Of a stretch of 64,000 bases of DNA, positions 16-43,534 are shown piece after piece. Numbering within the stretch: position 1 is the first letter of the stretch; every line of letters begins with the position of its first letter. The DNA is taken from positions 6,250 through 70,249 of the forward strand of contig JAFCGM010000002.1 of the NCBI GenBank assembly GCA_017608025.1. Reading direction: 5' to 3'. This DNA comes from Candidatus Pacearchaeota archaeon (GTDB lineage Archaea > Nanobdellota > Nanobdellia > UBA10117 > JABICX01). A model generated the notes under the pieces. It was given only the letters and a program-made list of their open reading frames with translations. It was not told the origin of the DNA and searched no databases. The translations under genes and the position numbers were made by a program.

Positions 16-627
16 ATGACTAAATTGAGCATCTTCACAGATTTTGATAATGCTTTGGTTTCGAAGAATACGCCGATTCTGTTTAGTGAGAAATATTGTG
101 AAGAAAATCCCTTTAAGTTTGTTCATAGCATAATTATTCTTTTGTCAAAAAGGAAAAAACTGGGTGGAAAAGCTCTCAGCTTTTTAATGAATTCTGCTGG
201 GAAAAAGAAAAAAGAGTTGTGGTGCAGAGAAATTGCGCGCGGACTTAAGTTCAATGAAAAATGGCTTAAAAAATTCAAACAAATTGTTGGGAAAAAGAAG
301 ACAGATGAAGTTGAGATAATTATAATAACAAGAAATGAGGCAATTATTCCTGAACTTTTCATGAGGGACAAAGAAAATCTTGAAGTTCTGAGAAAAGCTT
401 CTGGAAGCAAATTTAAAAGCAATTACACTATAATTGGAAATAAAACTTTCAGAGAGCATGTGATTGAACATTTTGGGAAAATTAAGAATGTTAAGGGAAA
501 TCTCAATGAAATTAGAGACAAGGAAAAAATTATTCCAAACAGAGCATATTACTTTGGAGATGAAAAAGAAAAAAGCATTTTCAGAAAAAATCACAAACTT
601 AAAGAAATTAATTTTGTAGAGGTCTAG
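16..627 (+). CDS. HAD-superfamily hydrolase-like protein
   Basis: N-terminal FTDFDNAL resembles HAD motif I (DxDx[T/V]). C-terminal YFGDEKE resembles motif IV. Otherwise weak. Confidence 0.35.
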   Translation: MTKLSIFTDFDNALVSKNTPILFSEKYCEENPFKFVHSIIILLSKRKKLGGKALSFLMNSAGKKKKELWCREIARGLKFNEKWLKKFKQIVGKKKTDEVEIIIITRNEAIIPELFMRDKENLEVLRKASGSKFKSNYTIIGNKTFREHVIEHFGKIKNVKGNLNEIRDKEKIIPNRAYYFGDEKEKSIFRKNHKLKEINFVEV

Positions 628-16381: not shown

Positions 16382-16840
16382 TTACTTGTCTTGCTTTTTC
16401 AAAAGATTGTGCTGCCTTATATAAAGATTAAGGTGCTTCTTGCTTCTGAAAAATCCTCCTTTTATTTTCAAATAAAGTTCTCTGTAAGTATCTTTCTCAA
16501 GCTGGTCTTTATTTTTCAGGTTTTTTAAAACTTTTCTTTGACTTCTAACTTTGTTTATCCATTTTTCTTTTGGCGGGGTTCTTGCGCCTCTTTTCCCTTT
16601 CTTGCTTGCAATTCCTCTTTGCCTTCCTTTCTTTTTAGCAAGTGCTGTTGCTCTTGCCCTGTGCCTTGATGTCCCTTTTTTAGGAACTACTGTAATAATC
16701 TGTTCTTTTATTAAAGAGATTATATCACTTTTTGTTATTGCCTGCTTTACTTGCTCTCTTCCTTCTGGAGAAATCTTTACTCGGTTTTTACTTGTGTTTG
16801 CAACTTGAGAAGCAAGTTTCTTTTGGAGTTTTAGTTTCAT
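16382..16840 (-). CDS. rpl19e: Ribosomal protein L19e (eL19)
   Basis: MKLKLQKKLAS...TSRHRAR signature. Confidence 0.9.
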   Translation of the reverse strand: MKLKLQKKLASQVANTSKNRVKISPEGREQVKQAITKSDIISLIKEQIITVVPKKGTSRHRARATALAKKKGRQRGIASKKGKRGARTPPKEKWINKVRSQRKVLKNLKNKDQLEKDTYRELYLKIKGGFFRSKKHLNLYIRQHNLLKKQDK

Positions 16841-17619
16841 TTCTTATTATTCTCCTTTTTGCTATCTTGTGTTTTTGGTTTGTTTTTTGTTTCAGGCTTT
16901 TTTGATTCTGATTCTTTAGTTTGTTTGTTTTCTTTGTTAGGGGCGGTTTCTTTTGCTACAGTCCTTCTGCTGAAGGGACCCACAGCAGTGCTATCTTCGC
17001 CTGGCTCGATATCACTTTTATTTTCTTTGTTAGGGGCGGTTTCTTTTGCTGCTTTTTTTATTTTGGACAAAATCTCCTGCTTTTTCTTTTCATCAATTTT
17101 TTTCTTCTTTTTAATATCTGCAACTTCCTTGTCTTTTTTCTTCAGCTCTTCTTGTCTCTTTTTTTTCTTTTCTGCTTTTTCTTTTTTCTGCTTCTTTCTT
17201 TTTTCATAAGACTCTTTTATTTTCCTTATTTCAGAGTCAAGGTTTCTTATGTTTGAAAATGATATTTTTTTGCTTTTTGCTTTTTCGAGAATTTCAAGGC
17301 GTTTCTTGCTTCCTATTTTTGAAGACAAAATTGCGAAATTTTTCTCTGGATTGAAGTTTTTTAAATCATTGTGATTTTCAACTCTAAAAGGAGTTTTTCC
17401 TTCTTCATTTGCATGCCTTAGAATTGAAATTGTTTTGAATCCAATTGAAACCATCTTTGGTTTTCCTCGTCTTCTAAGCCTTAATTTTGACTGAACTCCG
17501 CGAGGCTTTCTCCACTTTGTTCCAAGCCGTTTTCTCCTGTGAGATTCCTGCCTTTTGAATTCTGGCATTTTCTTTTTTATTTTTTTCTTCTGCTTGGAAA
17601 GTTCTTTTAATGATTTCAT
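16837..17619 (-). CDS. rpl32e: Ribosomal protein L32e (eL32) with ~140-aa K/E-rich C-terminal tail carrying an in-frame repeat-element insertion
   Basis: eL32 core (RRKRLGTKWRKPRG...) followed by a low-complexity tail. Tail contains ...EDSTAVGPFSRRT... flanked by an exact 30-bp duplication. Confidence 0.85.
   Translation of the reverse strand: MKSLKELSKQKKKIKKKMPEFKRQESHRRKRLGTKWRKPRGVQSKLRLRRRGKPKMVSIGFKTISILRHANEEGKTPFRVENHNDLKNFNPEKNFAILSSKIGSKKRLEILEKAKSKKISFSNIRNLDSEIRKIKESYEKRKKQKKEKAEKKKKRQEELKKKDKEVADIKKKKKIDEKKKQEILSKIKKAAKETAPNKENKSDIEPGEDSTAVGPFSRRTVAKETAPNKENKQTKESESKKPETKNKPKTQDSKKENNKK
16958..17020 (-). repeat. Family-A short element (63 bp), in frame inside the eL32 tail
   Basis: gtccttCTGCTGaagggacccaCAGCAGtgctatcttcgcctggctcgatatcac, flanked by exact 30-bp direct repeats (16928-16957 / 17021-17050). 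Confidence 0.85.
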
Positions 17620-19275: not shown

Positions 19276-19992
19276 TTAATTCAACTTTATTGCTGGCTTG
19301 TCTTTTCCAACAACAATAACATTTTTCAAATCAGCTTCAGATAAATTTCCTTTTTCATCTTTTGCTATGGCTATTTTTTGCTTTTTCAATATTCCTTTTT
19401 CAGTGATTTCTTCTAGTTTGGCAGTGCTACCTACTTTTTTTCCACCAAAAAAATACAGCAAGCTTCCTTTTTTAAGAGGAAGGGTTTCTTGCTCTTTTCT
19501 TTTTTCTGAATCATAAACAACTACGTCGCCTGTTTTGTAGTTTCCTTTGCTTACTAAAATGTTCCATCCATTCATGAAATTAAGCTGAATTTTTCCTTTT
19601 TTTATCTTTGACTTGTTTTCAATTCTAAGCAAAAGTATTTTTGCTTCTTTTTCTGGAATTTCTATGAACTTGAATTTTCGATTTTTTCCAATAACAACTC
19701 TGTAGTGCTTATTTATTTTTGGAAAAGAAATTACATCAAAAAGCCCTACTGGGAAATTTATTTCTTTTATTGAACGATTGTTAACAATAACTTCTTTATT
19801 GTAAATCAAATATTTAGCTCGTTTTCTTGAATCTGAAATTTTTAGGATTTCTGTTAAAATAACTGAAAGAGGCATTGAAGTTAATATGTTATGTGTTCCA
19901 GCAATAGGTTTTGCTATCCATTTTATTCCTTTCCTTTTTATTGGCCATGCTTTTGGTGCATTAAGCCTTGATAGATGTTGTTTCTTACTCAT
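19276..19992 (-). CDS. rps4e: Ribosomal protein S4e (eS4)
   Basis: MSKKQHLSRLNAPKAWPI... eS4 N-terminus. Confidence 0.9.
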   Translation of the reverse strand: MSKKQHLSRLNAPKAWPIKRKGIKWIAKPIAGTHNILTSMPLSVILTEILKISDSRKRAKYLIYNKEVIVNNRSIKEINFPVGLFDVISFPKINKHYRVVIGKNRKFKFIEIPEKEAKILLLRIENKSKIKKGKIQLNFMNGWNILVSKGNYKTGDVVVYDSEKRKEQETLPLKKGSLLYFFGGKKVGSTAKLEEITEKGILKKQKIAIAKDEKGNLSEADLKNVIVVGKDKPAIKLN

Positions 19993-20515
19993 TGTTTTTT
20001 CCTCCTTTTGAATCAGTTTTTACTGGCTTTATTGTTTTTGTTGATGATTTTTCAATTGCTTGCTTTCTTGTCCTTCCAGCGAAGGGACCCACGCTGGCGC
20101 TATCTTCGCCTTTGGCTCGATAGCTCTTAGATTGTGATGATTTTTCAATTGCTTGCTTTCTCTTCTTGTCAGATAAATCAATATCAATTATTTGAACATT
20201 TGAAGGAGATATTGGGTATTTAATTACTCGGCCTTCTTCTTTTTTGAATTCTGCTTTTCTGACAAAGATTTTGCTCTTTTTTAGAGACACTTTTTCAACT
20301 TCTCCAATCAATCCTTTGAATTGGCCTCTAAGGATTTTTACCTTGTCTTTAACTCGAATTGGAATGTTTCTTGTATTGTATTTTTTTCGCAAATCTTTTG
20401 AAAGTAAAGCAGACATAAACTTTCTTTTTACATGAAGCGGAGAATTGAATCGATATTTCCTCTGCTTTCTAGGCTGTTTGCTTGACTTCCATTTTTTAGA
20501 CCAAAGAGTTTTCAT
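19985..20515 (-). CDS. rpl24: Ribosomal protein L24 (uL24, KOW) with C-terminal tail carrying an in-frame repeat-element insertion
   Basis: KOW motif KVKILRGQFKG. Tail contains ...EDSASVGPFAGRT... flanked by an exact 27-bp duplication. Start taken at MKTLW. Confidence 0.85.
   Translation of the reverse strand: MKTLWSKKWKSSKQPRKQRKYRFNSPLHVKRKFMSALLSKDLRKKYNTRNIPIRVKDKVKILRGQFKGLIGEVEKVSLKKSKIFVRKAEFKKEEGRVIKYPISPSNVQIIDIDLSDKKRKQAIEKSSQSKSYRAKGEDSASVGPFAGRTRKQAIEKSSTKTIKPVKTDSKGGKNNE
20069..20134 (-). repeat. Family-A short element (66 bp), in frame inside the uL24 tail
   Basis: gtccttCCAGCGaagggacccaCGCTGGcgctatcttcgcctttggctcgatagc, flanked by exact 27-bp direct repeats (20042-20068 / 20135-20161). 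Confidence 0.85.
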
Positions 20516-20520
20516 TTTGA

Positions 20521-20925
20521 TTATAACATTATGCTTGCTGTTTTTGCCACCTGAGACCATCGATATGCAACTTCTTTTGCAATCGGACCTTTAATTAAAG
20601 TACCTTTTGGTGTTCCCAAACGAACATCACGCAAAACAATTCCTGCATTGTCCTCAAATTTAACTTTTGTTCCGTCAGGTCGGGAATATTCCTTTTTTTG
20701 CCGGACAATAACGACAGGAACAACTTGGTGCACCATGTCTGGCTTTCCTGCCTTAACAGCAACAGTAACCAAGTCAGAAACGCCTGCAGAAGCAAGCTTT
20801 CTTGTTCTTGTCTTATAACCGCGAACAGAGATTATCTGTCCAAGTCTTGCTCCTGAATTATCTGCTATGTTAATTACAGTTCCCAAAGGCATGCTTTTTG
20901 ATATTCTTGTTTTTACTGATTTCAT
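20521..20925 (-). CDS. rpl14: Ribosomal protein L14 (uL14)
   Basis: MKSVKTRISKSMPLGTVINIADNSGAR... uL14 sequence. Confidence 0.9.
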   Translation of the reverse strand: MKSVKTRISKSMPLGTVINIADNSGARLGQIISVRGYKTRTRKLASAGVSDLVTVAVKAGKPDMVHQVVPVVIVRQKKEYSRPDGTKVKFEDNAGIVLRDVRLGTPKGTLIKGPIAKEVAYRWSQVAKTASIML

Positions 20926-20936
20926 TTTTTGTCCTC

Positions 20937-21090
20937 TGTCCTTCTGCTGAAGGGACCCACAGCGGTCGTGTAAAGCTTTGCTTCACACAACGGTTTAACT
21001 CTAGTGACTGTCCTTCTGCTGAAGCCACTCATAGCAGTGCTATCTTCAGAAACAAAGTTTCCTTGATAACAGGTATTTAGCATTATAGGA
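20937..21090 (-). repeat. Two tandem family-A elements (A3a 20937-21008, A3b 21009-21090) inserted at the S17 stop / L14 start overlap
   Basis: Flanked by 26-bp direct repeats ttcattttttgtcctctgtccttctg (20921-20946 / 21091-21116) that each contain the ATGA overlap. Confidence 0.8.
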
Positions 21091-22221: not shown

Positions 22222-22303
22222 TGTCCTTCTGCTGAAGGGACCCACAGCAGCTCTACCGAGCAAAGCTCGATAGCGCGAATGGATTCCTTAGTTTTTTTCC
22301 TCC
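22222..22303 (-). repeat. Family-A full-length element (A4) occupying the whole S3-L29 junction
   Basis: Minus-sense: GGAGGaaaaaaaCTAAGGAAtccatTCGCGCTATCgagctttgctcggtagagctgctGTGGGTCCCTTCagcaGAAGGACA then ATG. Its first 16 nt encode the S3 C-terminus and stop. Confidence 0.85.
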
Positions 22304-24965: not shown

Positions 24966-25074
24966 GTCCTTCTCGCGAAGGGACCCACTCAGCCGCAAAA
25001 TCGGCTGGCGCTTTCATCAGGCAGATGTTGGTCTGATGCCTGATAGCGCGAAAGTTCCTTAGTTTTTTGCCTCC
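24966..25074 (-). repeat. Family-A long element (A6, 109 bp) between L23 and L2, abutting the L2 ATG
   Basis: GGAGGcaaaaaaCTAAGGAACTTTCGCGCTATCaggcatcagaccaacatctgcctgatgaaagcgccagccgATTTTGcggctgagtGGGTCCCTTCgcgaGAAGGAC then ATG. Confidence 0.85.
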
Positions 25075-27376: not shown

Positions 27377-27922
27377 TTAAAATAGTTCATCAGCACGTTT
27401 CCGTACTTTTTTATCTATGTTTCTAGTTGATAATATAATATTCTCAAGATTTTGTTTTAAATCAACAAATTGCCTATCTTTAATTCCTTTATTTTCTAAA
27501 ACACGTTTATATAAATTAAAAACACGATTAAGATTTACAAAATGCTTTCCTTTTGAATATATAACATTACTTTGATTTACAATAAATGGAAAGTCAAAAG
27601 TTCTTCCTGTTTTTCCAAGTTTATCTGTAGCTTCTGAATAAGCCTCATTAATATTCCAAATAAGTGCACGCATTGCACCTATATCCAAAACAAAATAATT
27701 AATTTCACCTGTCTGAAGATCTACAGCCTTAGCGACACCAGATAATTCATACATAAAATCAATACTTCCTGGAAGATCTCTATTTTTTAAATAATGCTTA
27801 TATTCATCAAGAAATTCTTCTTTTGTACAGCTTACAGCATGTTTTAGTTTAAAATTAAATAACGGGTCTTTTGTAAGACAATTCCACAAATCATGATTAT
27901 CTTCCCAACTTTTAGCTTCCAT
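27377..27922 (-). CDS. Hypothetical protein (orphan, inside an AT-rich gap)
   Basis: 181-aa ORF with no recognised motif. Flanked by very AT-rich spacers between the L3 operon start and tfs. Confidence 0.35.
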   Translation of the reverse strand: MEAKSWEDNHDLWNCLTKDPLFNFKLKHAVSCTKEEFLDEYKHYLKNRDLPGSIDFMYELSGVAKAVDLQTGEINYFVLDIGAMRALIWNINEAYSEATDKLGKTGRTFDFPFIVNQSNVIYSKGKHFVNLNRVFNLYKRVLENKGIKDRQFVDLKQNLENIILSTRNIDKKVRKRADELF

Positions 27923-28096
27923 TTATATACTATAATATATAAATAAATTATAATTTTTATTTAAAAAAGTTACTATTTAGGAGTAACACTGCTTTTTCTT
28001 TTGCAAAGAAAAGGTAAATCGATAAAAGAAGCAAATTATTCTTTTTTCAGAAATAGTTTTCTCTAATTTTCAGCCAGCGCTTTTTCTAAAGAAAAA

Positions 28097-28396
28097 TTAT
28101 TCGTATTCCCGCCATGTGTGCTTGCACTTTACGCATCTGAAGAAAGTTGTTTCAGGTTCATCTGAAGCGCGTGTTTGCTGGGTCCACCAAAAAGCTGTTT
28201 CATATCCGCATTTTGGGCATTCTTGTTTTGTTGTTGGAAGTGTTGCTTCTTCTTTTTCAAAAACGCCTTTTCCTTCTTGGCTTTCAGAAATTTTTTCTGT
28301 TAATTTTATGTCTCCTTTTTTGGAAAAACCGCATTCACAGACCAGTTTTCCGTTGTTAGGCACTAAAATACTCCCGCATTTTGGACAGATTTGCAT
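28097..28396 (-). CDS. tfs: Transcription factor S / RNAP subunit M (TFIIS-type zinc ribbon)
   Basis: N-terminal CPKCG...C zinc ribbon. C-terminal CPKCG...AFWWTQQTRASDEPETTFFRCVKCKHTWREY TFIIS signature. Confidence 0.85.
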   Translation of the reverse strand: MQICPKCGSILVPNNGKLVCECGFSKKGDIKLTEKISESQEGKGVFEKEEATLPTTKQECPKCGYETAFWWTQQTRASDEPETTFFRCVKCKHTWREYE

Positions 28397-28562
28397 GGTT
28401 TTCCTAAAAAGCCTATTCTAATTTAAAAGTGTTTCTATAGAAAAAAATAGAACACTAACTATAATATGTAAAAAAAGTAAGTATCACAAATTGTCAAATC
28501 CATAATTATATCTGCTACAGGATTTATTTTACTTTAAAAAGTGTTTGTATTCCCAAAGCTTT

Positions 28563-28656
28563 CTTAGAAAGAAAGCTTGCAAAGAACAACATTTTTCTTA
28601 GAAAGAAAGCTTGCAAAGAACAACATTTTTCTTAGAAAGAAAGCTTGCAAAAAATT
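28563..28656. repeat. Tandem repeat, 34-bp unit x ~2.8, each unit a palindrome (gctttctt-aga-aagaaagc)
   Basis: cttagaaagaaagcttgcaaagaacaacattttt repeated head-to-tail. Confidence 0.85.
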
Positions 28657-28661
28657 GAAAT

Positions 28662-28714
28662 TTTAGAAAAAGCGGCTAGGACTACATCTAAGGCGGCTAC
28701 GCCTTCTGCGGAAA
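28662..28714 (-). ncRNA. Candidate small RNA or conserved intergenic element, family D copy 1
   Basis: Near-identical 53-bp copy of 32318-32370: tttagaaaaagcggctaggactRcRtctaaggcggctacgccttctgcggaaa. Minus-sense would end in T5. Confidence 0.3.
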
Positions 28715-28889
28715 AATAGCTCTTTTTCTTTTCGAGAACATTTTCTTTTTCAAAAGAAAAGGTTCAAGCGAGCCCGGAGGGATTCGATTACCTCGGCAAA
28801 CCCTTTAAAAAAGTGTTTGCATTCCCAAATGTTTTTTTCGAGCGAAGCGAGACTTTTTAGCAACTTGCCTTTTTTTGAAAAAGGCAGAG

Positions 28890-29052
28890 CGAGCCCGGAG
28901 GGATTCGAACCCTCGATCTACAGCTAACTCCAGCACATTAAAGTCTTTTAGCTTATCTTTGCAGGCATCGCATTTTGTTTGCCTGCTCAAAGCGCCAGCC
29001 AATTTTGCGGCTGTAGGAGGCTGTCGCCCTATCCAGACTAGGCTACGGGCCC
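28890..29052 (-). tRNA. tRNA-Arg(CCT) with 88-nt intron at 37/38; the intron carries a family-A repeat module
   Basis: Acceptor GGGCCCG/CGGGCTC. Anticodon stem ACAGC/GCTGT with loop CTCCTA^A. T-arm GAGGG-TTCGAAT-CCCTC. Intron contains CAGCCG-CAAAAT-TGGCTG plus a long stem. Confidence 0.65.
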
Positions 29053-29585
29053 AGTTAAAGAAAACTGCAATATCTTAATAAAACTTGCCAATTCACTACC
29101 GAAATTCTTTAATCTATGTGTTTCTATAAAATTAACATGAAAAACAAACATAGATTAATTGCTTTCTTTTTAGTACTTGTTTTTGTAGTAAGCTTCTTGT
29201 TTTTTGGAAGGATTTTCAGCATAATAGATTCTCTTTCTGATTTAACAGGCGCGGAAATTCTAAAGACTCCAGAAGAAAAGTCAGAAGAATACTCATCTGT
29301 CTGCGAGCAGAAAGACTTTTCAAAAAATTATCGCGACTGTATTTACTGGGAACAGGAAGGGGAAAAACAAGATTCTCTTTCAAAGCTTTCAGACGAAGCA
29401 GTGGAATCTTTTTGCAAAGAGCTATTTAGAATTTACAAAACTTGCGAATAGAAACATTTTTAACTGATATTTTGGGTTTAACTCATATCAGATTTGCTCT
29501 GAGCTAACTTTCGACTGTTGAACAGCAGCGGGATGTCTTTGCCAGCGCTTTTCTGAAAAGAGATATGCATCATGATCTAATGCTC

Positions 29586-29678
29586 CTTCTCGTGAAGGGA
29601 GTTACATGCGGCTGCAAAATCAGCCGGCACTTTCATCAGGCAACAAAGTACGATGCCTGATTGTGATTCACGAACACA
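29586..29678 (-). repeat. Family-A structured repeat element (copy A7), directly 5' of tRNA-Gly
   Basis: tccttctcgtgaaggga...gcggctg-CAAAAT-cagccg...ttcacgaa. Flanked by a duplicated ~20-bp tRNA-Gly 5' segment (29565-29585 / 29680-29700). Confidence 0.7.
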
Positions 29679-29681
29679 TAT

Positions 29682-29753
29682 GCACCGATGATCTAATGGC
29701 TATGATTCGAGCCTTCCAAGCTCGCTGTCTGGGTTCGATTCCCAGTCGGTGCA
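29682..29753 (+). tRNA. tRNA-Gly(TCC)
   Basis: Acceptor GCACCGA/TCGGTGC+A. Anticodon stem-loop CGAGC-CTTCCAA-GCTCG. T-arm CTGGG-TTCGATT-CCCAG. T6 terminator follows. Confidence 0.85.
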
Positions 29754-30221
29754 TTTTTTGTGATTTCAAAAATCAGCAAAATTCATTAGAAAAAATTTCA
29801 TTAAAAAAGCAGTAGCGCCTGAGAAGATTTGAACAGAACCCCTTTAAAAAAGGGTCTTCCAACCCCAAAAACTGATTGAAGCTAAAAAAGCAAGATTAAA
29901 AAGTGTGATTTTGTTTTTTCTTAATCTAAAACTGAGTTCATTATCTTTTCAAGTTGTAAAATCATGACTGGGTTGAGGTCCTTCTTCAATGTATAGTCTT
30001 ATCATTTCATCTTGTGATTTTTTAATTAAATTAAAGAGTTTATTATTTTTCTCATAGATATTATTTTGTTTTAATTCTATAAACGAATGTGTTATATAAA
30101 GTTTAAAAAGTTAATTAAATTATATAAAAAAGAATCTTTTTAAAATATCTAAACAATACTTGCATTCCAAATATTGTTTTTCTTTGGGCAACTTGCACTT
30201 TCTTTTTCTAAAAGAAAGGGC

Positions 30222-30340
30222 AGCGCCTGGGGAGATTTGAACTCCCGACATCTTGCTTTCTCGTTTTTTCTGTTAATATTTTTGCGCGAAGCAGAAACGA
30301 GTTACGAGGCAAGCGCTCTACCAGACTGAGCTACAGACGC
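30222..30340 (-). tRNA. tRNA-Thr(CGT) with ~46-nt intron
   Basis: Acceptor GCGTCTG/CAGGCGC. D-arm GCTC-AGTCTGGTA-GAGC. Anticodon stem CTTGC/GCAAG with loop CTCGTAA. T-arm GGGAG-TTCAAAT-CTCCC. Confidence 0.75.
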
Positions 30341-30432
30341 AAGGTTGTATAAAAAACTTAAGCAAAATACTTTTTTTAATTGTATGGTTTTCAAAACAAA
30401 CAAATATAAGGTTTTAATTTTAGAATTTATTT

Positions 30433-30969
30433 ATGGACAATCTTCTGGATGATATATTTGAAAAAAGGGAAGAAGAGCAACGACAGGAAGCTAAAAAGTA
30501 TGTTGAACTTGTTCATCAAGCAAGAAAGGAAATTGATTTGGCAGACCATCTTTTTAATGTTACTTACAACGCAATCAAAGACTTGAAAATGCTTGCTGCA
30601 ATTGAAGACCACATAATAAAATCAAGTTTCTGTGCTTTGAACTCTCTTTTGGAGTATCTTCGCCAAAAACATAAGATTGAAGCATTTTCAACAAACAAAT
30701 CTGTAATGGTTGACTTGTTTGAGAGAAAAGTTATTGGTAAGTATAATTCTTTTGAGCTTAATGACATTCATTTTCTGAACAGACTAATTGACCTTGAGCA
30801 TTACATGAAAAACAGCACACTAAGATTCAAAAGAGGGACTTCTTATGTTCTTGCTTTGCCAGATTATTCAATAAAATCACTTAACTCAGATATTGTAAAA
30901 AACCATTTGTCTGTATCCAATGACTTTGTTTCTCGAGTAGAAAAAGAGTTAAATAATAATGAAGATTAA
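30433..30969 (+). CDS. Hypothetical protein
   Basis: 178-aa ORF with no recognised motif. Confidence 0.35.
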   Translation: MDNLLDDIFEKREEEQRQEAKKYVELVHQARKEIDLADHLFNVTYNAIKDLKMLAAIEDHIIKSSFCALNSLLEYLRQKHKIEAFSTNKSVMVDLFERKVIGKYNSFELNDIHFLNRLIDLEHYMKNSTLRFKRGTSYVLALPDYSIKSLNSDIVKNHLSVSNDFVSRVEKELNNNED

Positions 30970-30995
30970 TTGATATTAATGCTTTTGGGGTTAAA

Positions 30996-31373
30996 ATGGA
31001 TAAATTTGAAGAAATTGAAAAAAAAATATCTTTTGCAGAGTTTTTAATTGGAAGAGGTTCAAAAGAATATTCTGTTGGTGCAATAAAGCATGTTATTTCT
31101 GCTGCGCAGATTCTTGTACAGCAAATAACAAGCTTGAATGAATACGATGCAAAAAGCCCGCAAATTGCAAAATCATCTCTTAAAAAATTCAAAGAAGATG
31201 AAATAAAAGATTTTTCTAAATTCTACCAGAAACTTCTTACAAAAGAAGAAAAATCTCATATTACTCCTCAAGAAGTTGAAGAAGACATACAGAAACTTAA
31301 GAAATTTACTGAGATAGCTAAAAGAATGAAAGGAAATAATGAAAAAAGGCACAATTTTTTTCGGGAAGTTTAA
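30996..31373 (+). CDS. Hypothetical protein
   Basis: 125-aa, alpha-helical, K/E-rich. Co-oriented with the 30433 ORF. Confidence 0.35.
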   Translation: MDKFEEIEKKISFAEFLIGRGSKEYSVGAIKHVISAAQILVQQITSLNEYDAKSPQIAKSSLKKFKEDEIKDFSKFYQKLLTKEEKSHITPQEVEEDIQKLKKFTEIAKRMKGNNEKRHNFFREV

Positions 31374-32096
31374 TTATCCTACGTAGCTCAAATCTTTACT
31401 CTTTTTTGCAAGGTCTTTTTTTCCTCTAAGTCCTTCTTTTAAAATCGCCTTGATTTTTGTTTCTGTTTCTTCTGCTTTTTTCAAAAGAGGCCGTACATCA
31501 ATTTTTAAAGCTAAATAGTTGTTCAGAACTTTTACAATTTCTGCTGCTGCTCTGCTGTCTGGAAGCTTTGATGTTGTTTCTGCAAAGATGTAAGTTAAGG
31601 GCAGTTTTTTTGGAGCTCTTAGCATTAAAGAACCTGTAACTCCTAAAACAGCGCCTTCCTTAAGTTCAGAGTAACCTAATTTTTTCAGCTTTTTCTCAAT
31701 TGCTTCTTTGTTTGAGTGGTAGAATGGGCTGCTGATTTTTTTCTTTGTAAATGGAGCATTAACTCCTTCTATACTTATTACTTCTTTTGCCTTTACTTTT
31801 TTTGAAAATTGAATAATTGTATCTGCAATTTTCCATTCTAAACCATTAACATCTGTAATTGCGTGAAGCAAAATAAGATTGTTTTTATTGTCATAAAAAA
31901 TTTCAAAAGGTCTTCTTAATTCTCCCTTGTGAATTGTAGCAATTGGAGCAAGCTTATCTGAAACAATTTTTCCAATTGGCTTTGCTTTCAAATTTTCAAT
32001 AAGATATTCCATAGCTATTGTGCTAACATATCCAAGACCAGGAAAACCTTCAATTATAATTGGATTTTTTGGAATTTTTTCAAGAGAAACTTCCAT
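31374..32096 (-). CDS. PAC2-family protein (proteasome-assembly-chaperone-like)
   Basis: IIIEGFPGLGYVSTIAMEYL N-terminal signature of the PAC2/COG1938 family. Start taken at MEVSLE. Confidence 0.5.
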   Translation of the reverse strand: MEVSLEKIPKNPIIIEGFPGLGYVSTIAMEYLIENLKAKPIGKIVSDKLAPIATIHKGELRRPFEIFYDNKNNLILLHAITDVNGLEWKIADTIIQFSKKVKAKEVISIEGVNAPFTKKKISSPFYHSNKEAIEKKLKKLGYSELKEGAVLGVTGSLMLRAPKKLPLTYIFAETTSKLPDSRAAAEIVKVLNNYLALKIDVRPLLKKAEETETKIKAILKEGLRGKKDLAKKSKDLSYVG

Positions 32097-32206
32097 TGTA
32101 TTATAAAAATATATATAATGGTTTATATAATTTGTTGAAAAAATTTCTAAAAGTTTCATCAAAAATAAAAGGAAATATTTATAAATCGCATATTTTACTT
32201 AGATTT

Positions 32207-32316
32207 TAGCGGTCATAGCCCAGGGGTTCACCTGTTCCCATTTCGAACACAGAAGTTAAGCCCTGGTACGTTCCCGGTTGTACTGCATTTATGTGGGAAT
32301 CCGGGAAAGCTGCTAC
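32207..32316 (+). rRNA. rrf: 5S rRNA (stand-alone, not linked to 16S/23S in this window)
   Basis: GCGGTCATAGCCCAGGGGTTCACCTGTTCCCATTTCGAACACAGAAGTTAAGCCC... with terminal helix I pairing, followed by T6. Confidence 0.8.
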
Positions 32317-32317
32317 T

Positions 32318-32370
32318 TTTTTAGAAAAAGCGGCTAGGACTGCGTCTAAGGCGGCTACGCCTTCTGCGGA
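32318..32370 (-). ncRNA. Candidate small RNA or conserved element, family D copy 2
   Basis: Second copy of the family-D 53-mer, directly after the 5S terminator. Followed by the palindrome gaaacttttggaaaaagtttc also found at the tRNA-Leu 5' flank. Confidence 0.3.
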
Positions 32371-32459
32371 AACTTTTGGAAAAAGTTTCATCAAAAACAG
32401 AATCATATTTTTACATTATCTCTTTTCCATATTGATTTTAGTTAAGATTCTTTAGTGCA

Positions 32460-32540
32460 GTCCTTTTAGCTAAGAGACCCACGCTGGCGACAAACATTGG
32501 TTATGAAAAGTCGCATAAGCTCTTAAATTATTTCTTTTTC
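32460..32540 (-). repeat. Degenerate family-A element flanked by diverged ~30-bp direct repeats
   Basis: gtccttttagctaagagacccacgctggcg... between attgattttagttaagattctttagtgca and atgttaattttaactaagactctttggtgca. Confidence 0.5.
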
Positions 32541-32645
32541 ATGTTAATTTTAACTAAGACTCTTTGGTGCATTTTTTGAATAAATGCTTTTTTGTCATCC
32601 ATTTCAGAAGCTTCATAATAAAACAAAAATAAAAATTAAATTTGT

Positions 32646-32990
32646 TTGATACGGGTTCAAAAACTTTATATTAAATTACAGAAAAGGAAAAAAATGGATA
32701 TTAACACTTTCGGATATGCAGCAGTTATGTATTTTTCCGAAGACCAAGAAAATGTTTTTTTTGAAACATCAAAAGGTTATTTAATAAGCCAGGAAAATTC
32801 TCTTTCATCAAGACTTTTGAGGCAGAGCCTGTTGAAGCCAAAATCAAAGCAAGTAAAATTTGAATTTAATGGGAGCACTATTAAGATTTATATTGATTCT
32901 GGTTTTGGAAATCCAAAAGAAATTATTTTTCGAGATGTAAGTAGGGATCACAAAATGGATGAAGGTTCCTTATTTATGCGCGCAGCATAA
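32646..32990 (+). CDS. Hypothetical protein (probable start at MDINTF, nt 32694)
   Basis: No recognised motif. Confidence 0.3.
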   Translation: MIRVQKLYIKLQKRKKMDINTFGYAAVMYFSEDQENVFFETSKGYLISQENSLSSRLLRQSLLKPKSKQVKFEFNGSTIKIYIDSGFGNPKEIIFRDVSRDHKMDEGSLFMRAA

Positions 32991-34303
32991 TGGAAGATTT
33001 AGTTATAAAAAACGCAAAGATTTTAACTATGAATAAAAATTCTGATATTCTGAATAATTCGTGGATTTCTGTTAAAGGAAATTTAATTTCTGGAATTGGA
33101 AACATGGAAGCACCAAAAGCAAAAAAAATGATTGACTGTAATGGCAAACTTGTTATGCCAGGATTAATCAATGTTCATACTCATGCTTCTATGAACTTGC
33201 TGAGAGGAGTTGCAGATGACTTGCCTCTGCAAGAGTGGCTTTTTAATCATATTTTTCCAATTGAAAACAAATTCATTAACAAAGAGTTTGTTTATTGGGG
33301 GACTAAGCTAGCAATTGCAGAAATGCTTTTGTCAGGAACAACAACTTTTGTTGATATGTATTTTGAAAAAAACGAAGCTGCAAGAGCATGTGAAGATTCT
33401 GGAATTCGAGGGATTATTTCCTGGGCAGCACTTAATTTGCCAACAAAAGAAAATCCAGACAAAATAGCAAAAAAAAGTGAGGACTTCATAAATAAATGGA
33501 AAAAAAGTTCTCTTGTTATTCCTGCTGTTGGACCTCATTCAGTTTACACCTGCTCTGAAAAACTTCTCAAAAAAATGAAAGAAGTTTCAGACAAGCATAG
33601 TTGCATTTACCACATTCATGTCTCAGAAACTGAGAAAGAGAACAAAGAACATTTTAAGAAACATAAAAAATCACCAATCAAATATCTAAATGATTTGAAT
33701 ATTTTGTCTGAAAAAACTCTTGCTGCTCATTGTGTTCATCTTGACAAAAAAGATATTGAAATTATAAAAAACAAAAATGTTCGAGTTGCATATAATCCAG
33801 AAAGCAATGCAAAACTTGCTTCAGGCATTGCACCAGTAAGAGTACTGCTAGAAAATGGAGTTACAGTTGGAATTGGAACTGACGGAGTTGCAAGCAACAA
33901 CAACCTCAATCTGTTTGAGGAAATGAAATTTGCAAGCTTAATTCAAAAAGCCAATGAAATGGATGCAACAGTTTTACCTGCAAAAAAAATTGTGGAAATG
34001 GCTACAATTGACGGAGCAAAATGCCTTGGTCTGGAAAAAGAGATTGGCTCTATTGAAAAAGGAAAAAAAGCTGACTTAATTGTTTTAGATACAAAAAAAC
34101 CACATATGTTTCCAGAGTATAACACTTATTCAAATATAGTTTATTCTGCAAACGGAAGTGAAGTTGAAATAGTAATTGTTAATGGAAAAGTCCTTGTTGA
34201 AAATCAGAAGATAATTTCTTTTGATTTAAATGAAGTTATGAAGAAATGCAGAGATATTGTTGAAAAAATAAGAAAATTCAAAGAAGCTTCAAGTCAGAAA
34301 TAA
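32990..34303 (+). CDS. Amidohydrolase-family deaminase (MTA/SAH deaminase MtaD-like, COG0402)
   Basis: Metal-binding HTH at the start of GLINVHTHASM, internal HIHVSE, and a C-terminal GTDG-type aspartate motif. Confidence 0.7.
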   Translation: MEDLVIKNAKILTMNKNSDILNNSWISVKGNLISGIGNMEAPKAKKMIDCNGKLVMPGLINVHTHASMNLLRGVADDLPLQEWLFNHIFPIENKFINKEFVYWGTKLAIAEMLLSGTTTFVDMYFEKNEAARACEDSGIRGIISWAALNLPTKENPDKIAKKSEDFINKWKKSSLVIPAVGPHSVYTCSEKLLKKMKEVSDKHSCIYHIHVSETEKENKEHFKKHKKSPIKYLNDLNILSEKTLAAHCVHLDKKDIEIIKNKNVRVAYNPESNAKLASGIAPVRVLLENGVTVGIGTDGVASNNNLNLFEEMKFASLIQKANEMDATVLPAKKIVEMATIDGAKCLGLEKEIGSIEKGKKADLIVLDTKKPHMFPEYNTYSNIVYSANGSEVEIVIVNGKVLVENQKIISFDLNEVMKKCRDIVEKIRKFKEASSQK

Positions 34304-41950: not shown

Positions 41951-42937
41951 TTAAAACGCCTGTTTATAGTCAGGAGCGTCTCTTGGCGAAAAATCAATCT
42001 CAATATCAAAAGAAAAAATAGCTTTCACCAAAATACAAATATTATAAACCAAACATTTCAAATACAATTCATTTACTTGAGATTCAAAGTTCTTAAAATA
42101 TAATTTAGCACCAAACTTACGCTTTAATGCACTGAAGCTTGCTTCTACATTAGACCTTTTGTGATAGTGCTTATAGAATTTACTTCTATTCTTACGGAAC
42201 AGTTCCAATGAAGTTTTCCAAACACCGCTTTTTCTCTTCATTCCACAATTACTTCTGAAAGGAATATATGGAACGCCACCATAATGATGAACCGTCTCTA
42301 AATTATGCCTAGAAGAATATGCTTTATCTCCTAATACTTCATCAATCTTGAAATTCTCAGCAGTTCTTGAAACTAACTTATCAAATTCAGGAGAATCATG
42401 ACATTCACCTGTAGTAATTTCAAGAGAAGTAATTACATTCGTAAAAATCCCACACATTGCATGACATTTAACAAATTTATGCCTGTCATTATATCCGACT
42501 CTTGAATCAAACCATCTCTCATAACTATTAGTTGAGAATCCAGTCGAATCAACTGCAAACCTAGTCTCCAAGTATTTCAAAGGCATAGCAGACATCATAA
42601 GTAAATAATTCAATGTTGGGGTCAAAGATTTTCTTCTCATGTAGTCCGTAACAGAAGAATGATGTGGGACTTTTTTAATATATCCCATATCTTTGAGAAA
42701 CCATAATTGAGATGTAAGTGTTCTTGAAGGCATCCCAAAATATAACTTCATAGCTAGGCAGAAGATTACATCCTTTTGATTGTGCATTGGACGACCTTTT
42801 TTCTTTATTGGTTCCGATACAGTTTCATCCAATAGATTTCTGAGGATTTCAACAAAGAGTCTACCTTCCTTAGTTTGCGCTTTATTGTAGGAAGTCCAGT
42901 CTCTATCTTTTGTGAATTCTTTAATTTTTGATTGCAT
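41951..42937 (-). mobile_element. IS5/IS4-superfamily DDE transposase gene (IS ends not resolved)
   Basis: DDE_Tnp_1-like blocks FAVDSTGF, LGDKAYSS, EASFSALKRKFG. Confidence 0.7.
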
Positions 42938-43090: not shown

Positions 43091-43306
43091 ATGAACGAAA
43101 AGATTCCTAAAAACGTGTTAAAGGAACTAGAATTTAAGGTTGACAAGAAGCCAATTAGGATTGCTGGAAAAATCATCGCAGAAGCTCATCAAGTTTCAAT
43201 TCGGCTTCCAAAAGAGATTAAAGCTGAATTGGATTTGTCTCAAGGTTCTCATCCTTGCGAGATTGAACTTATTGATAATAAAACATTGAAGGTGCATATA
43301 AAATGA
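43091..43306 (+). CDS. Small hypothetical protein (possible AbrB/SpoVT-like DNA binder)
   Basis: 71 aa. Its stop overlaps the next ORF's start (ATGA). Confidence 0.3.
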   Translation: MNEKIPKNVLKELEFKVDKKPIRIAGKIIAEAHQVSIRLPKEIKAELDLSQGSHPCEIELIDNKTLKVHIK

Positions 43307-43506: not shown

Positions 43507-43534
43507 AAAAAAGAAAAATATGACTGAATAAAAT

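What the first reader, a model, noticed from the sequence alone, without database searches (positions are those of the whole stretch)
28540..28920. Repeat-dense spacer next to tRNA-Arg: 34-bp palindromic tandem repeat x3, a duplicated tRNA-Arg 3' end, and family B, D and E copies
28563-28656 holds 2.8 units of cttagaaagaaagcttgcaaagaacaacattttt. agcgagcccggagggattcga, which is the tRNA-Arg 3' acceptor/T-arm, occurs at 28768-28788 as well as in the gene (28893-28913). aaagtgtttgYattcccaaa occurs at 28541 and 28807. Five repeat families meet within 400 bp, next to a tRNA whose intron carries the A modules. This region is a good candidate hotspot or origin for the element system.
Basis: seen in the sequence. 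Interest (0 to 1): 0.55.

Follow-up and report, generated by a model that had tools for sequence, protein, structure and literature searches.

The report
Hairpin-repeat pile-up beside tRNA-Arg
The 490-bp gap between a tRNA-Arg gene and the next gene of a small DPANN (Woesearchaeota-like) archaeon holds short hairpin-forming repeat modules plus a leftover copy of the tRNA's tail; these are most likely scars of small insertions and local duplications, not a working gene and not the source of the repeats.

Summary
The region is the 493-bp spacer between tRNA-Arg(CCU) (28890-29052, minus strand, 88-nt canonical intron) and the TFS gene.

Read on the minus strand it contains, in order:
- a T/A-tract hairpin with an AAGTTGCT box
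- an 'E-family' hairpin module
- an orphan copy of the tRNA's T-loop-to-3' end
- a second T/A hairpin
- a 54-nt copy of the 5S rRNA 3' flank
- a perfect 34-bp x2.7 hairpin array
- a second E module

The tRNA-tail copy is not a one-off. tRNA-Leu and tRNA-Thr in the window, and tRNA-Leu in a related genome (79% L3 identity), carry the same arrangement: tRNA, then a 60-390 nt insert ending in an E module, then an orphan 3' end. The same 'flank-insert-flank' pattern recurs at protein-gene ends. Relatives show empty sites there.

Best reading: non-coding insertion and duplication scars built from terminator-like hairpin modules, with the copies kept alike by gene conversion. 'Hotspot' is supported: the spacer has the most repeat-covered bases in the window and sits at a synteny breakpoint. 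'Origin of the system' is not supported. The insertion mechanism is unknown.

The parts
28890..29052 (-). tRNA-Arg(CCU) gene. An 88-nt intron (about 28926-29013) sits at the canonical 37/38 position. The intron contains the two-hairpin 'module H' (about 28960-29013).
   Evidence: Rfam RF00005, 49.3 bits; ARAGORN -i. Helix-bulge-helix-bulge (BHB) motif read from the sequence (CUCC/GGAG helix flanked by 3-nt bulges). Intron homologues at 24990-25023, 29611-29659 and 56263-56288 score 53/47/37 against a null maximum of 30. Compensatory pair changes in module H.
28888..28908 (-). Copy 1 of the 21-nt repeat: T-loop 3' part, T-stem 3' strand, acceptor 3' strand, discriminator and 2 trailer nt of the functional tRNA-Arg.
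   Evidence: Exact match.
28853..28887 (-). T/A-tract hairpin CTGCCTTTTTCAAAAAAAGGCAG followed by the box AAGTTGCTAAAAAG. It is a terminator-like module abutting the tRNA 3' end and forms the left end of the 100-nt insert.
   Evidence: Folds at -9.9 kcal/mol, z = -2.3. Copies at 628-661 and 918-951. About 12 hairpin+AAGTTGCC modules in the window, mostly just downstream of genes.
28838..28852 (-). TCTCGCTTCGCTCGA box, which travels with the hairpin module.
   Evidence: Family D11: 649-679, 12528-12558, 12627-12657. Part of the 80-nt, 92.5% match to 628-707. No stable fold on its own.
28791..28832 (-). E-family module copy 1: CATTTGGGAAT + hairpin GCAAACAC-TTTTTTAAA-GGGTTTGC. It is the right end of the insert and lies directly upstream of the orphan tRNA tail.
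   Evidence: Covariance model R1, 50.3 bits, E = 3e-8. Alignments A3 and A4. Inverted repeat I9. Fold -8.0 kcal/mol, z = -1.5, so weak.
28767..28795 (-). Orphan tRNA-Arg 3' fragment. 28767-28787 is identical to the gene. 28788-28795 is a degraded T-stem and T-loop 5' side (CGAGGTAA versus CGAGGGT).
   Evidence: (score 38 versus null maximum 22).
28736..28765 (-). Second T/A-tract hairpin GAACCTTTTCTTTTGAAAAAGAAAATGTTC. It is probably the tRNA's original trailer/terminator, displaced by the insert.
   Evidence: Inverted repeat I3, 14-nt arms, 93% complementary. Fold -9.1 kcal/mol, z = -4.05. Its role as the original trailer is inferred by analogy with tRNA-Leu in L035/L038.
28661..28714 (+). 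54-nt block that is 96% identical to the sequence immediately 3' of the 5S rRNA gene (32319-32372), in the same orientation.
   Evidence: (D18). No significant fold on either strand. Absent after the 5S gene in relative L011.
28556..28656 (+). Perfect tandem array, 34 bp x 2.7-2.8. Each unit is an X-type hairpin (AAGCTTTCTTagaAAGAAAGCTT) plus the tail GCAAAGAACAACATTTTT.
   Evidence: TRF score 184. Unit folds at -10.4 kcal/mol, z = -2.5. Homologous single units at 12691-12724 and in the tRNA-Leu insert of L035 (agctttcttcaaaagaaagctagcaaagaac).
28519..28560 (-). E-family module copy 2. It is degenerate: the 3' stem is lost and no recognisable tRNA tail follows.
   Evidence: R1, 35.8 bits, E = 5e-5.
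28097..28428 (-). TFS/RpoM-like gene (28097-28396) and its BRE/TATA-like promoter GAAACACTTTTAAAT (about 28421-28435). This is the downstream boundary of the spacer.
   Evidence: ORF. The ortholog in L011 has Pfam Zn_ribbon_TFIIS and a TATA-like box at the same distance from its ATG.

Best explanation
The spacer is a non-coding pile-up of short hairpin-centred repeat modules that are common in this lineage's intergenic DNA. The 'duplicated tRNA-Arg 3' end' is the flanking duplication of one such insertion.

Specifically, a 100-nt cassette sits between two copies of the tRNA's T-loop-to-3' end. Its left end is a T/A-tract hairpin with the AAGTTGCT and TCTCGCTTCGCTCGA boxes. Its right end is an E-family hairpin module. 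The upstream copy completes the working tRNA. The downstream copy is an orphan, followed by what was probably the tRNA's original trailer hairpin.

Further downstream the spacer gained a copy of the 5S rRNA 3' flank, a recently expanded 34-bp hairpin array and a second, decayed E module.

The T/A-tract hairpins probably act as oligo-T terminators or insulators for the densely packed RNA and protein genes, effective in both directions. This function is inferred. The orphan tRNA tail itself probably has no function and is kept identical to the gene by gene conversion over 121 bp. This too is inferred.

Shown: the anatomy, its recurrence at three tRNAs and several protein-gene ends, empty sites in relatives, and presence at tRNA-Leu in a related genome.

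Not shown: the insertion mechanism. Candidates are site-specific recombination at the T-loop, or replication/repair template switching that copies a module from elsewhere and re-copies the flank.
For: 1. The same architecture occurs three times in the window. tRNA-Leu, tRNA-Arg and tRNA-Thr each have a significant downstream copy of their own T-loop-to-3' end, at +91..115, +102..121 and +388..408. Alignment scores are 36/38/32 against shuffle maxima of 23/22/20. Each copy is immediately preceded by an E-family module (A3; R1).

2. The ortholog comparison at RpoD-tRNA-Leu-L18e supports an insertion at the tRNA 3' end.
- L035 (same MAG as the 79%-identity L3 relative) has the E module plus an orphan tRNA-Leu tail.
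- That orphan is followed by the trailer (CTTTCTCTTTTT..GAGAACCTGCACTAAG) that directly follows tRNA-Leu in L038.
- L037 and L038 lack the orphan.
- The orphan matches each species' own tRNA at position 65 (C in the window, T in L035). The window orphan keeps the ancestral A on the 5' side of the T-stem. This pattern fits gene conversion starting in the T-loop.

3. The flank-insert-flank pattern is general. There are 18 exact local direct repeats of at least 18 nt, against 0.04 expected. They include the L2 3' end (27-31 nt), the L32e and L24 tails, and the SecY 3' end. In L011 and L012 the L23/L2 gap is 9 and 1 nt and the L2/S19 gap is 12 nt (L011) and 2 nt (L012). In the window these gaps are about 100 and 150 nt.

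4. About 230 nt of the spacer, including a diverged Arg-like tail, is repeated at 628-870.

5. T/A-tract palindromes with stem >=9 and loop <=4 number 22 in intergenic DNA and 9 in coding DNA, although intergenic DNA is 18% of the window. They abut the 3' end of 4 of 6 tRNAs and of the 5S gene. Five or six consecutive T residues terminate archaeal RNA polymerase (PMC2253867; PMC8716108).

6. In tRNA introns the E module is antisense, so no T5 run is present in the tRNA sense.
Against: No enzyme or mechanism is known to me that gives flanking duplications of 19-70 nt.

Insert plus duplication clusters oddly at 90-121 nt in 9 of 16 cases.

The E module always lies next to the T-loop, which hints at sequence-specific recombination rather than random template switching.

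Presence of the module-plus-orphan unit at tRNA-Leu in a genome whose L3 is only 79% identical could instead mean the unit is functional.

Hairpin covariation in the E family is weak (68.7% of cells paired).

No orthologous tRNA-Arg(CCU) locus was available, so the insertion at this particular site is inferred by analogy.

Termination at the hairpins is untested.
Confidence: 0.55

Rival explanations
1. These are classical att-site scars. A tyrosine-integrase element (virus or plasmid) that recombines in the tRNA T-loop integrated into tRNA-Arg, and related elements into tRNA-Leu and tRNA-Thr. The two tRNA-tail copies are attL and attR. The element body was later deleted, leaving only its arms: the T/A hairpin side as P' and the E module side as P.
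For: Identity starts in the T-loop and runs to or beyond the 3' end, with an imperfect T-stem mimic on the element side. This is the geometry of T-loop-type att sites (own knowledge: Williams 2002). tRNA fragments flanking integrated elements are common in archaea (PMC9897764; PMC3293823). Two haloarchaeal loci found by chance (L015, L019) have an orphan tRNA-Arg(CCG) tail about 95 nt downstream. In L035 the orphan keeps the ancestral trailer while the tRNA has a new one.
Against: The 'element' is 62-385 nt with no ORF at all three tRNAs. Three independent near-total deletions that each keep both arms are improbable. No integrase was seen among the ORFs tested; the only mobile-element gene found is a DDE transposase at 41951-42937. 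The modules have no match in viral contigs, phage records or plasmid records. The same flank-insert-flank pattern occurs at protein-gene ends and inside Lys-rich tails, which are not att sites.
Confidence: 0.2
2. The E module is a mobile BRE/TATA-type promoter. Module plus orphan plus T-run is then a tiny transcription unit producing a 20-35 nt RNA identical to the tRNA 3' end and trailer, or the module acts as a promoter for the downstream gene. The tRNA-tail copy would be functional, for example as a decoy or guide, or as a 3' piece for trans-splicing.
For: The module core (C/G)AAACAC-TTTTT(T)AAA closely resembles the TFS promoter GAAACACTTTTAAAT, which sits at the right distance for a leaderless mRNA and has a counterpart in L011. 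The loop TTTTTGAAAGGG and its 16-19 nt distance to the orphan are similar between the window and L035. A T-run follows the orphan within 5-12 nt at Arg, Leu, Thr and L035-Leu. The orphan tracks the species-specific tRNA sequence.
Against: The predicted start would fall inside the orphan, giving very short RNAs. In L038 the homologous module lies 12 nt from the L18e ATG, too close to be its TATA box. The window copy at 672-772 has no T-run after its tail, and copy 2 at 28519-28560 has no tail. A complete tRNA-Arg exists and no orphan 5' half was found in the window. The orphan starts in the T-loop, not at a known split position. No upstream sequence can pair with the orphan's acceptor strand to make a minihelix (read from the sequence). 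Gene conversion explains the co-variation.
Confidence: 0.1
3. The repeats are assembly artefacts of a metagenome-assembled genome: collapsed or chimeric repeats, or strain variants stitched in tandem.
For: Several repeats are 100% identical at short range (53, 70, 101 and 58 nt). The source is a MAG contig. Tandem copy number (2.7 units) cannot be verified from one assembly.
Against: An independent assembly from another project (L035, GCA_964558255.1) has the same tRNA-Leu/insert/orphan structure with diverged sequence. Many flanking repeats are already diverged at 93-97%. The orphan tRNA-Arg T-arm differs from the gene by substitutions and an indel just outside the 21-mer.
Confidence: 0.03
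4. The region is a replication origin, or the founding locus from which the repeat families spread.
For: It is AT-rich and repeat-dense. GC skew changes sign near 28-30 kb. It has the highest absolute repeat load in the window.
Against: The skew change coincides with the switch in gene strand, and sign changes recur at 34, 38, 42 and 50 kb. There is no orc1/cdc6-like gene next to it; the neighbours are TFS, tRNAs and a 111-aa ORF. The 34-bp units are contiguous hairpins, not spaced origin-recognition boxes. Nothing marks the copies here as older: the tRNA-Leu locus architecture is also found in L035, whereas this spacer lies at a rearrangement breakpoint.
Confidence: 0.03

Closest known systems
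tRNA-gene fragments (attL/attR direct repeats) left by integrative viruses and plasmids in archaea, e.g. Thermococcales genomic islands and the Caldiarchaeum tRNA-Thr locus (PMC9897764, PMC3293823)
   Same: An intact tRNA plus an orphan copy of its 3' part in direct orientation. Identity begins inside the tRNA (T-loop) and extends past the 3' end. The orphan keeps the ancestral downstream flank (L035 versus L038).
   Different: Known cases enclose 9-23 kb (or 1.8 kb) elements with a recombinase gene and about 44-bp repeats. Here the enclosed DNA is 62-385 nt with no gene. The same short cassette family sits at three different tRNAs. An identical flank-insert-flank pattern is seen at protein-gene ends.
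Small intergenic palindromic repeat families of bacteria (REP/BIME, Correia/MITE-like elements, Rickettsia palindromic elements; from my own knowledge)
   Same: Short (30-100 nt) hairpin-forming modules, many copies, mostly intergenic and often at gene 3' ends. They combine in mosaics, are occasionally inserted in frame into coding tails (L24, L32e), and are plausibly co-opted as terminators.
   Different: There are no terminal inverted repeats and no fixed short target duplication. The flanking duplications are long and variable (19-70 nt). No RAYT- or IS200-type gene was seen. The host is a DPANN archaeon, and modules also sit inside tRNA introns.
tRNA intron transposition in Thermoproteales (Fujishima et al. 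2010, as reviewed in PMC4090602)
   Same: Near-identical sequence blocks are shared between introns of different tRNAs and other loci. The window's tRNA-Arg(CCU) and L026's tRNA-Arg(UCU) have almost identical exons but unrelated introns at the same position.
   Different: There the similar sequences are intron to intron. Here the intron modules (H and E) also occur outside tRNAs: in an r-protein operon spacer, in tRNA flanks and upstream of a tRNA. In some copies they are on the opposite strand.
Archaeal oligo-T transcription terminators (PMC2253867, PMC8716108)
   Same: T5-T6 tracts placed right after tRNA, 5S and protein genes. The palindromic form gives a T-tract on both strands.
   Different: Termination in archaea needs only the T-tract. 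Here the tracts are embedded in conserved hairpins with conserved tail boxes (AAGTTGCC-AAAAGAAA, GCAAAGAAC, ATCAAAAA) that are clearly copies of one another, not just convergent signals.

Membership tests
Integrated mobile element at a tRNA gene (att duplication) | Direct repeat made of the 3' part of the tRNA, with an intact tRNA at one end | tested here: met
   21-nt exact repeat, intact tRNA-Arg upstream.
Integrated mobile element at a tRNA gene (att duplication) | Element body with an integrase/recombinase and cargo genes between the repeats | tested here: not met
   100 nt lie between the repeats and hold no genuine coding ORF. The same holds at tRNA-Leu (62 nt) and tRNA-Thr (about 385 nt).
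Integrated mobile element at a tRNA gene (att duplication) | A matching attP on a free virus or plasmid, or an integrase elsewhere in the genome | tested here: inconclusive
   No hit in viral contigs, phage or plasmid collections. No integrase among the 10 ORFs scanned. Only 64 kb of the genome was available.
MITE / IS-derived miniature element | Terminal inverted repeats and a short target-site duplication of fixed length | tested here: not met
   The insert ends (CTGCC... / ...GGTAA) are not inverted repeats. Flanking duplications vary from 19 to 70 nt between sites.
Split or permuted tRNA (3' half gene) | The fragment begins at a known split/intron position and is needed to complete a tRNA | tested here: not met
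   The fragment begins in the T-loop. A complete tRNA-Arg(CCU) lies 121 nt upstream. No orphan 5' half is in the window.
Split or permuted tRNA (3' half gene) | Leader complementary to the trailer of a 5' half elsewhere in the genome | not testable with these tools
   The rest of the genome was not available.
Archaeal oligo-T terminator | A run of at least 5 T on the sense strand just downstream of the gene | tested here: met
   CTGCCTTTTTC follows tRNA-Arg directly and CCTTTTCTTTT follows the orphan. Such hairpins are enriched at gene 3' ends.
Archaeal oligo-T terminator | Transcripts actually end there | not testable with these tools
   No RNA data.
CRISPR array | Repeats separated by unique spacers of similar length | tested here: not met
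   The 34-bp units are contiguous, so the period equals the unit length.
Archaeal replication origin | Origin-recognition boxes flanking an AT-rich stretch, next to orc1/cdc6 | tested here: not met
   The neighbours are TFS, tRNAs and small ORFs. The skew change tracks gene strand.
Known RNA families (Rfam) | A match to any curated model in the spacer | tested here: not met
   Permissive E-value scan of 27500-33000: only tRNAs, 5S and chance-level hits.

The most novel reading that the evidence does not exclude
The E, H, T/A-hairpin and X modules would be one undescribed system of miniature, gene-less insertion cassettes in Woesearchaeota-like archaea. On this reading they insert at the T-loop/3' end (and 5' end) of tRNA genes and at other gene termini with long target duplications, with insert plus duplication of about 90-120 nt. 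The same cassettes would seed or remodel tRNA introns, giving a visible DNA-level route for archaeal tRNA-intron gain and for the birth of tRNA fragments.
Probability: 0.2. Interest if true: 0.65.

Novelty: new variant of a known kind. Interest (0 to 1): 0.42.

Why it matters
Taken alone, the spacer is mostly genomic scar tissue. It does show three things.

1. Orphan tRNA 3' fragments can arise and persist with only about 100 nt of gene-less DNA between them and the tRNA. They should therefore not be read automatically as prophage borders or as split-tRNA halves when DPANN genomes are annotated.

2. A reduced archaeal genome carries a lineage-wide vocabulary of terminator-like hairpin cassettes. 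These move between tRNA flanks, tRNA introns and ribosomal-protein operon spacers.

3. Intron sequence blocks are shared with non-tRNA loci. This bears on the open question of how archaeal tRNA introns are gained (mechanism 'still unknown', PMC4090602).

If the insertion process is enzymatic, it would be a new kind of small mobile element. If it is replication- or repair-based, it documents an unusual mutational signature in DPANN archaea.

Tried and rejected
- Rfam at gathering and permissive thresholds: nothing in the spacer beyond the tRNAs and 5S.
- Bacterial-type promoter/terminator scan: uninformative for an archaeon.
- The 54-nt 5S-flank block as a structured sRNA: no fold signal on either strand.
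- Pseudoknot/peptide reading of the 'GTGGGTCCCTTC..GAAGGAC' element: the first stem is complementary in only some copies, and the reading frame relative to the downstream ATG varies. Not pursued further.
- Simple tandem duplication as the source of the flank-insert-flank pattern: rejected. The sequence after the second flank copy never resembles the insert, and relatives lack the insert altogether.
- Inversion by recombination between the two 54-nt blocks: rejected. They are direct repeats, not inverted.
- Searches for the modules in viral contigs (4 patterns), phage records and plasmid records: no hit.
- Search for an orthologous tRNA-Arg(CCU) locus: none found. The 21-mer scan of metagenomes returned only other intact tRNAs. 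In the closest relative the TFS upstream region holds 5S, not tRNA-Arg.
- Attempts to extend beyond the window through exact-protein look-ups failed.
- A covariance model of the E family found only two additional weak copies in relatives, L038 and L014.
Full report
CONTEXT

The window is 33% GC. It carries an archaeal ribosomal-protein operon (L3-L4-L23-L2-S19...) on the minus strand, a TFS/RpoM-like gene, a 5S rRNA gene and six tRNA genes.

The best L3 matches among species-representative genomes are Woesearchaeota MAGs at only 57% identity. Closer relatives exist only as short contigs in the protein collection:
- L011, L035 and L039, all from MAG GCA_964558255.1: 79% (L3), 70% (RpoD) and 80% (PAC2) identity.
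- L013, L037 and L040: about 67-76%.
- L012 and L038: about 64-69%.

The finding lies in the 493-bp spacer (28397-28889) between the 3' end of tRNA-Arg(CCU) and the start of TFS (28097-28396). Both genes are on the minus strand. tRNA-Arg spans 28890-29052 and has an 88-nt intron at the canonical position with a textbook bulge-helix-bulge motif.

OBSERVATION

- The 34-bp unit is exact at 28563 and 28597 with a partial third copy. TRF gives 2.7 copies, 100% identity, score 184.
- The 21-mer AGCGAGCCCGGAGGGATTCGA occurs at 28767-28787 and 28888-28908.
- AAAGTGTTTGYATTCCCAAA occurs at 28538 and 28810, with a third copy at 686-705 on the other strand.
- Self-BLAST adds three matches: 28808-28887 = 628-707 (92.5%, inverted), 28853-28890 = 915-952 (97%), and 28661-28714 = 32319-32372 (96%). 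The last is the sequence immediately after the 5S gene.
- The spacer has the most repeat-covered bases of any intergenic region in the window (249 nt, 51%). Three shorter spacers are proportionally denser.

ANATOMY, READ IN THE SENSE OF THE tRNA (MINUS STRAND; CALL 10)

1. tRNA-Arg ends ...TCGAATCCCTCCGGGCTCG, followed by the trailer nucleotides CT.
2. Hairpin CTGCCTTTTTCAAAAAAAGGCAG, followed by the boxes AAGTTGCTAAAAAG and TCTCGCTTCGCTCGA.
3. CATTTGGGAAT plus the hairpin GCAAACAC-TTTTTTAAA-GGGTTTGC. I call this the E-family module.
4. A degraded T-stem/T-loop (CGAGGTAA).
5. The exact 21-nt copy of the tRNA tail.
6. A second strong T/A-tract hairpin (28736-28765; z = -4.05).
7. The 54-nt 5S-flank copy.
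8. The 34-bp hairpin array.
9. A second, degenerate E module (28519-28560).
10. The TFS promoter.

The structure is therefore flank (A) - 100-nt insert (B) - flank (A). A is the T-loop-to-3' end of the tRNA.

THE tRNA-TAIL COPY IS ONE INSTANCE OF A RECURRING ARCHITECTURE

I allowed introns in ARAGORN and aligned each tRNA's last 26-30 nt to its downstream 700 nt.
- tRNA-Leu, tRNA-Arg and tRNA-Thr each have a significant orphan copy, at +91..115, +102..121 and +388..408. Scores are 36/38/32 against shuffle maxima of 23/22/20.
- tRNA-Ser, tRNA-Gly and tRNA-Gln have none. Neither do about 30 tRNAs in unrelated loci.
- The exceptions among the other loci are L035 tRNA-Leu and two GC-rich haloarchaeal tRNA-Arg(CCG) loci picked up by chance (L015, L019).

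In all four DPANN cases the orphan is directly preceded by an E-family module (alignments A3 and A4). A covariance model (R1) recovers the eight training copies. It adds weak hits in the tRNA-Leu/L18e spacer of L038 and inside a multi-intron tRNA of L014. Hairpin covariation within the family is weak (68.7% of cells paired).

ORTHOLOG COMPARISON

In L035 the order is as follows. tRNA-Leu is followed by an X-type hairpin (agctttcttcaaaagaaagctagcaaagaac, the same family as the 34-bp unit of this finding). Then comes an E module, then AGGGGTTAAACAATCCTCTTCTCCGCAC (a T-arm with a 2-nt loop insertion plus the acceptor 3' strand). Last is the trailer CTTTCTCTTTTTCCAAAAGAGAACCTGCACTAAG.

In L038 that trailer directly follows the tRNA itself. 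L037 and L038 have no orphan. So about 110 nt (hairpins plus a second copy of the tRNA tail) lie at the 3' end of tRNA-Leu in both the window lineage and L035, most simply inherited from their common ancestor, though repeated insertion of related cassettes at the same site is not excluded.

The orphan carries each species' own T-stem base at position 65 (C or T). The window orphan retains the ancestral A on the 5' side of the T-stem. In the window the identity extends for 53 nt into the trailer. This is the pattern expected from gene conversion, or re-recombination, that starts in the T-loop. It removes the need to invoke selection on the orphan.

No orthologous tRNA-Arg(CCU) locus could be obtained, so for the finding's own site the insertion is inferred by analogy.

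THE FLANK-INSERT-FLANK PATTERN IS GENOME-WIDE

The window has 18 exact local direct repeats of at least 18 nt at spacings of 20-400 nt. Block shuffles give 0.04. They flank copies of modules found elsewhere.

| Site | Flank length | Period | Insert |
|---|---|---|---|
| L2 3' end | 27-31 nt | 90 | T/A hairpin + AAGTTTCC module, identical to 49799-49841 |
| L32e Lys-rich tail | about 30 nt | 93 | 'GTGGGTCCCTTC..GAAGGAC' element |
| L24 Lys-rich tail | about 30 nt | 93 | 'GTGGGTCCCTTC..GAAGGAC' element |
| SecY 3' end | 19-70 nt | nested | nested duplications |
| tRNA-Gly 5' end | exact 11-mer, about 18 nt overall | - | module H |

Relatives give empty sites:
- L23/L2 gaps of 9 nt (L011) and 1 nt (L012), against about 100 nt in the window.
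- L2/S19 gaps of 12 nt (L011) and 2 nt (L012), against about 150 nt in the window.

Insert plus duplication falls between 90 and 121 nt in 9 of 16 cases, although the flank varies from 19 to 70 nt. I cannot explain this.

WHAT THE MODULES PROBABLY DO

T/A-tract palindromes with stem >=9 and loop <=4 are 22 intergenic against 9 coding, although intergenic DNA is 18% of the window. They abut the 3' ends of four of six tRNAs and of the 5S gene.

Archaeal RNA polymerase terminates at runs of five or six T (PMC2253867; PMC8716108). A palindrome offers such a run on both strands. When the E module sits inside tRNA introns (tRNA-Gln here, tRNA-Arg(UCU) in L026), it is antisense, so the tRNA sense strand has no T5 run.

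I therefore infer a terminator/insulator role for the hairpins. I take the conserved tail boxes as marks of common descent rather than independent signals. This function is inferred, not shown.

LINK TO tRNA INTRONS

The tRNA-Arg intron contains a two-hairpin block (module H) with three significant copies elsewhere:
- inside the L23/L2 spacer, on the strand antisense to the operon;
- 22 nt upstream of tRNA-Gly;
- at 56263-56288.

Four base pairs show compensatory changes among the four copies.

The tRNA-Gln intron shares the E module with the tRNA-Leu insert and the tRNA-Thr orphan region.

The window's tRNA-Arg(CCU) and L026's tRNA-Arg(UCU) have virtually identical exons but unrelated introns at the same position. 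Intron 'transposition' is known from Thermoproteales with an unknown mechanism (PMC4090602). Here the shared blocks also occur outside tRNAs.

SYNTENY

In GCA_964558255.1 the contigs L039 and L011 abut at the 5S gene. They give the order tRNA-Thr...PAC2 (one strand) | 5S - 141-aa ORF - TFS - ... - L3 (other strand).

In the window the RNA-gene block (tRNA-Arg, tRNA-Gly, tRNA-Thr, PAC2, 5S) is inverted relative to TFS-L3. The two 54-nt blocks lie at its two edges as direct repeats. The spacer is thus a rearrangement breakpoint. That fits 'hotspot' but argues against its being an ancient source locus.

MECHANISM AND RIVALS

What is shown is duplicative insertion of gene-less cassettes with long flank duplications, followed by homogenisation.

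The classical integrase (att) model explains the T-loop start of identity and the ancestral trailer on the orphan. However:
- It requires three near-complete deletions that each leave only 62-385 nt.
- It does not cover the protein-gene sites.
- It finds no integrase in the ORFs tested and no viral, plasmid or phage counterpart.

A replication/repair template-switch model explains the variable flank lengths and the unrelated inserts. It does not explain the constant E-module/T-loop adjacency.

A functional reading treats the E module as a BRE/TATA promoter driving a tRNA-tail sRNA. Its support is the resemblance to the TFS promoter and the presence of the unit at tRNA-Leu in both the window and L035. 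Against it, the transcripts would be tiny, some copies lack the T-run or the tail, and gene conversion suffices to explain the co-variation.

Mis-assembly is unlikely given the independent L035 assembly and the diverged repeat copies. A replication origin is not supported.

VERDICT

It is best read as scar tissue made of terminator-like hairpin cassettes plus a gene-converted tRNA-tail duplicate. It is not a founder locus and probably not a functional RNA.

The wider cassette system is not described in anything I could find. Its features are insertion with long flank duplications, sharing of blocks with tRNA introns, and an insert-plus-duplication length of about 100 nt. It deserves a genome-wide survey. 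The local finding itself is of moderate interest.

Noticed in passing
window 16961-16982, 20070-20091, 20938-20959, 21010-21031, 22223-22244, 24966-24987, 32460-32481, 46911-46932, 54281-54302, 56121-56142 (all minus strand): A conserved element TGGGTCCCTTC-NNNN-RAAGGAC occurs in 10 copies against 0.06 expected. It is preceded by a variable hairpin and ends 1-16 nt before start codons (L2, the ORF starting at about 22250, and others), or lies inside the Lys-rich tails of L32e and L24. All copies are co-oriented with the genes. It is absent from the orthologous L23/L2 junction of relatives and from all 42 fetched loci. It could be an intercistronic RNA element or a mobile cassette. Its first stem is complementary in only some copies.
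   Followed up: partly
window 1027-1160 (-): An intron-containing tRNA, read by me as tRNA-Gln(UUG) with an intron of about 60 nt. It was missed by Rfam at gathering score and by default ARAGORN. ARAGORN -i calls it 'tRNA-Stop(tta)'. Its intron carries the E module in antisense.
   Followed up: partly
window 29566-29584 versus 29681-29698: An orphan copy of the 5' end of tRNA-Gly (exact 11-mer ATGATCTAATG, about 15 of 18 nt overall) lies about 115 nt upstream of the gene, with module H in between. This is a flank-insert-flank structure at a tRNA 5' end.
   Followed up: partly
window-wide: Insert plus flanking duplication clusters at 90-121 nt in 9 of 16 local direct-repeat pairs, although the flank length varies from 19 to 70 nt and the inserts are unrelated. 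No mechanism is known to me.
   Followed up: no
window 16837-17619 (L32e) and 19985-20560 (L24): Both ORFs run on through long Lys-rich tails to the next gene. Each contains an in-frame, stop-free 93-nt insertion (element plus flank duplication). The tails may be real extensions or stop-poor A-rich spacers.
   Followed up: no
window 52317-52496; 12518-12822; 46860-47124: Other perfect or nested local duplications. There is a 79-nt x2.3 array carrying the T/A hairpin + AAGTTGCC module. The SecY 3' end is copied three times. There is a roughly 100-nt x3 repeat upstream of a TatD-like gene.
   Followed up: no
window 28661-28714 and 32319-32372; L011 1-60; L039 1-60: Two 54-nt direct repeats bracket the 3.66-kb RNA-gene block (tRNA-Arg, tRNA-Gly, tRNA-Thr, PAC2, 5S). 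This block is inverted relative to TFS-L3 when compared with MAG GCA_964558255.1.
   Followed up: partly
L015 1163-1360; L019 5619-5810 (haloarchaeal metagenome contigs, 71-73% GC): tRNA-Arg(CCG) is followed about 95 nt downstream by an orphan T-arm-to-3'-end copy in two different genomes. The short geometry is the same as in the DPANN loci.
   Followed up: no
L014 480-720 (Ga0164318_10035995): Directly after a tRNA-Arg(UCG) lies what looks like a tRNA broken by two or more introns that contain T/A-tract palindromes. There is a weak R1 hit at 675-719.
   Followed up: no
window 41951-42937 (-), 43303-44358: A DDE_Tnp_1 transposase is the only mobile-element gene seen. Next to it are small HTH, DUF3892 and PaREP1 ORFs, so this may be a small mobile or variable island.
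   Followed up: no
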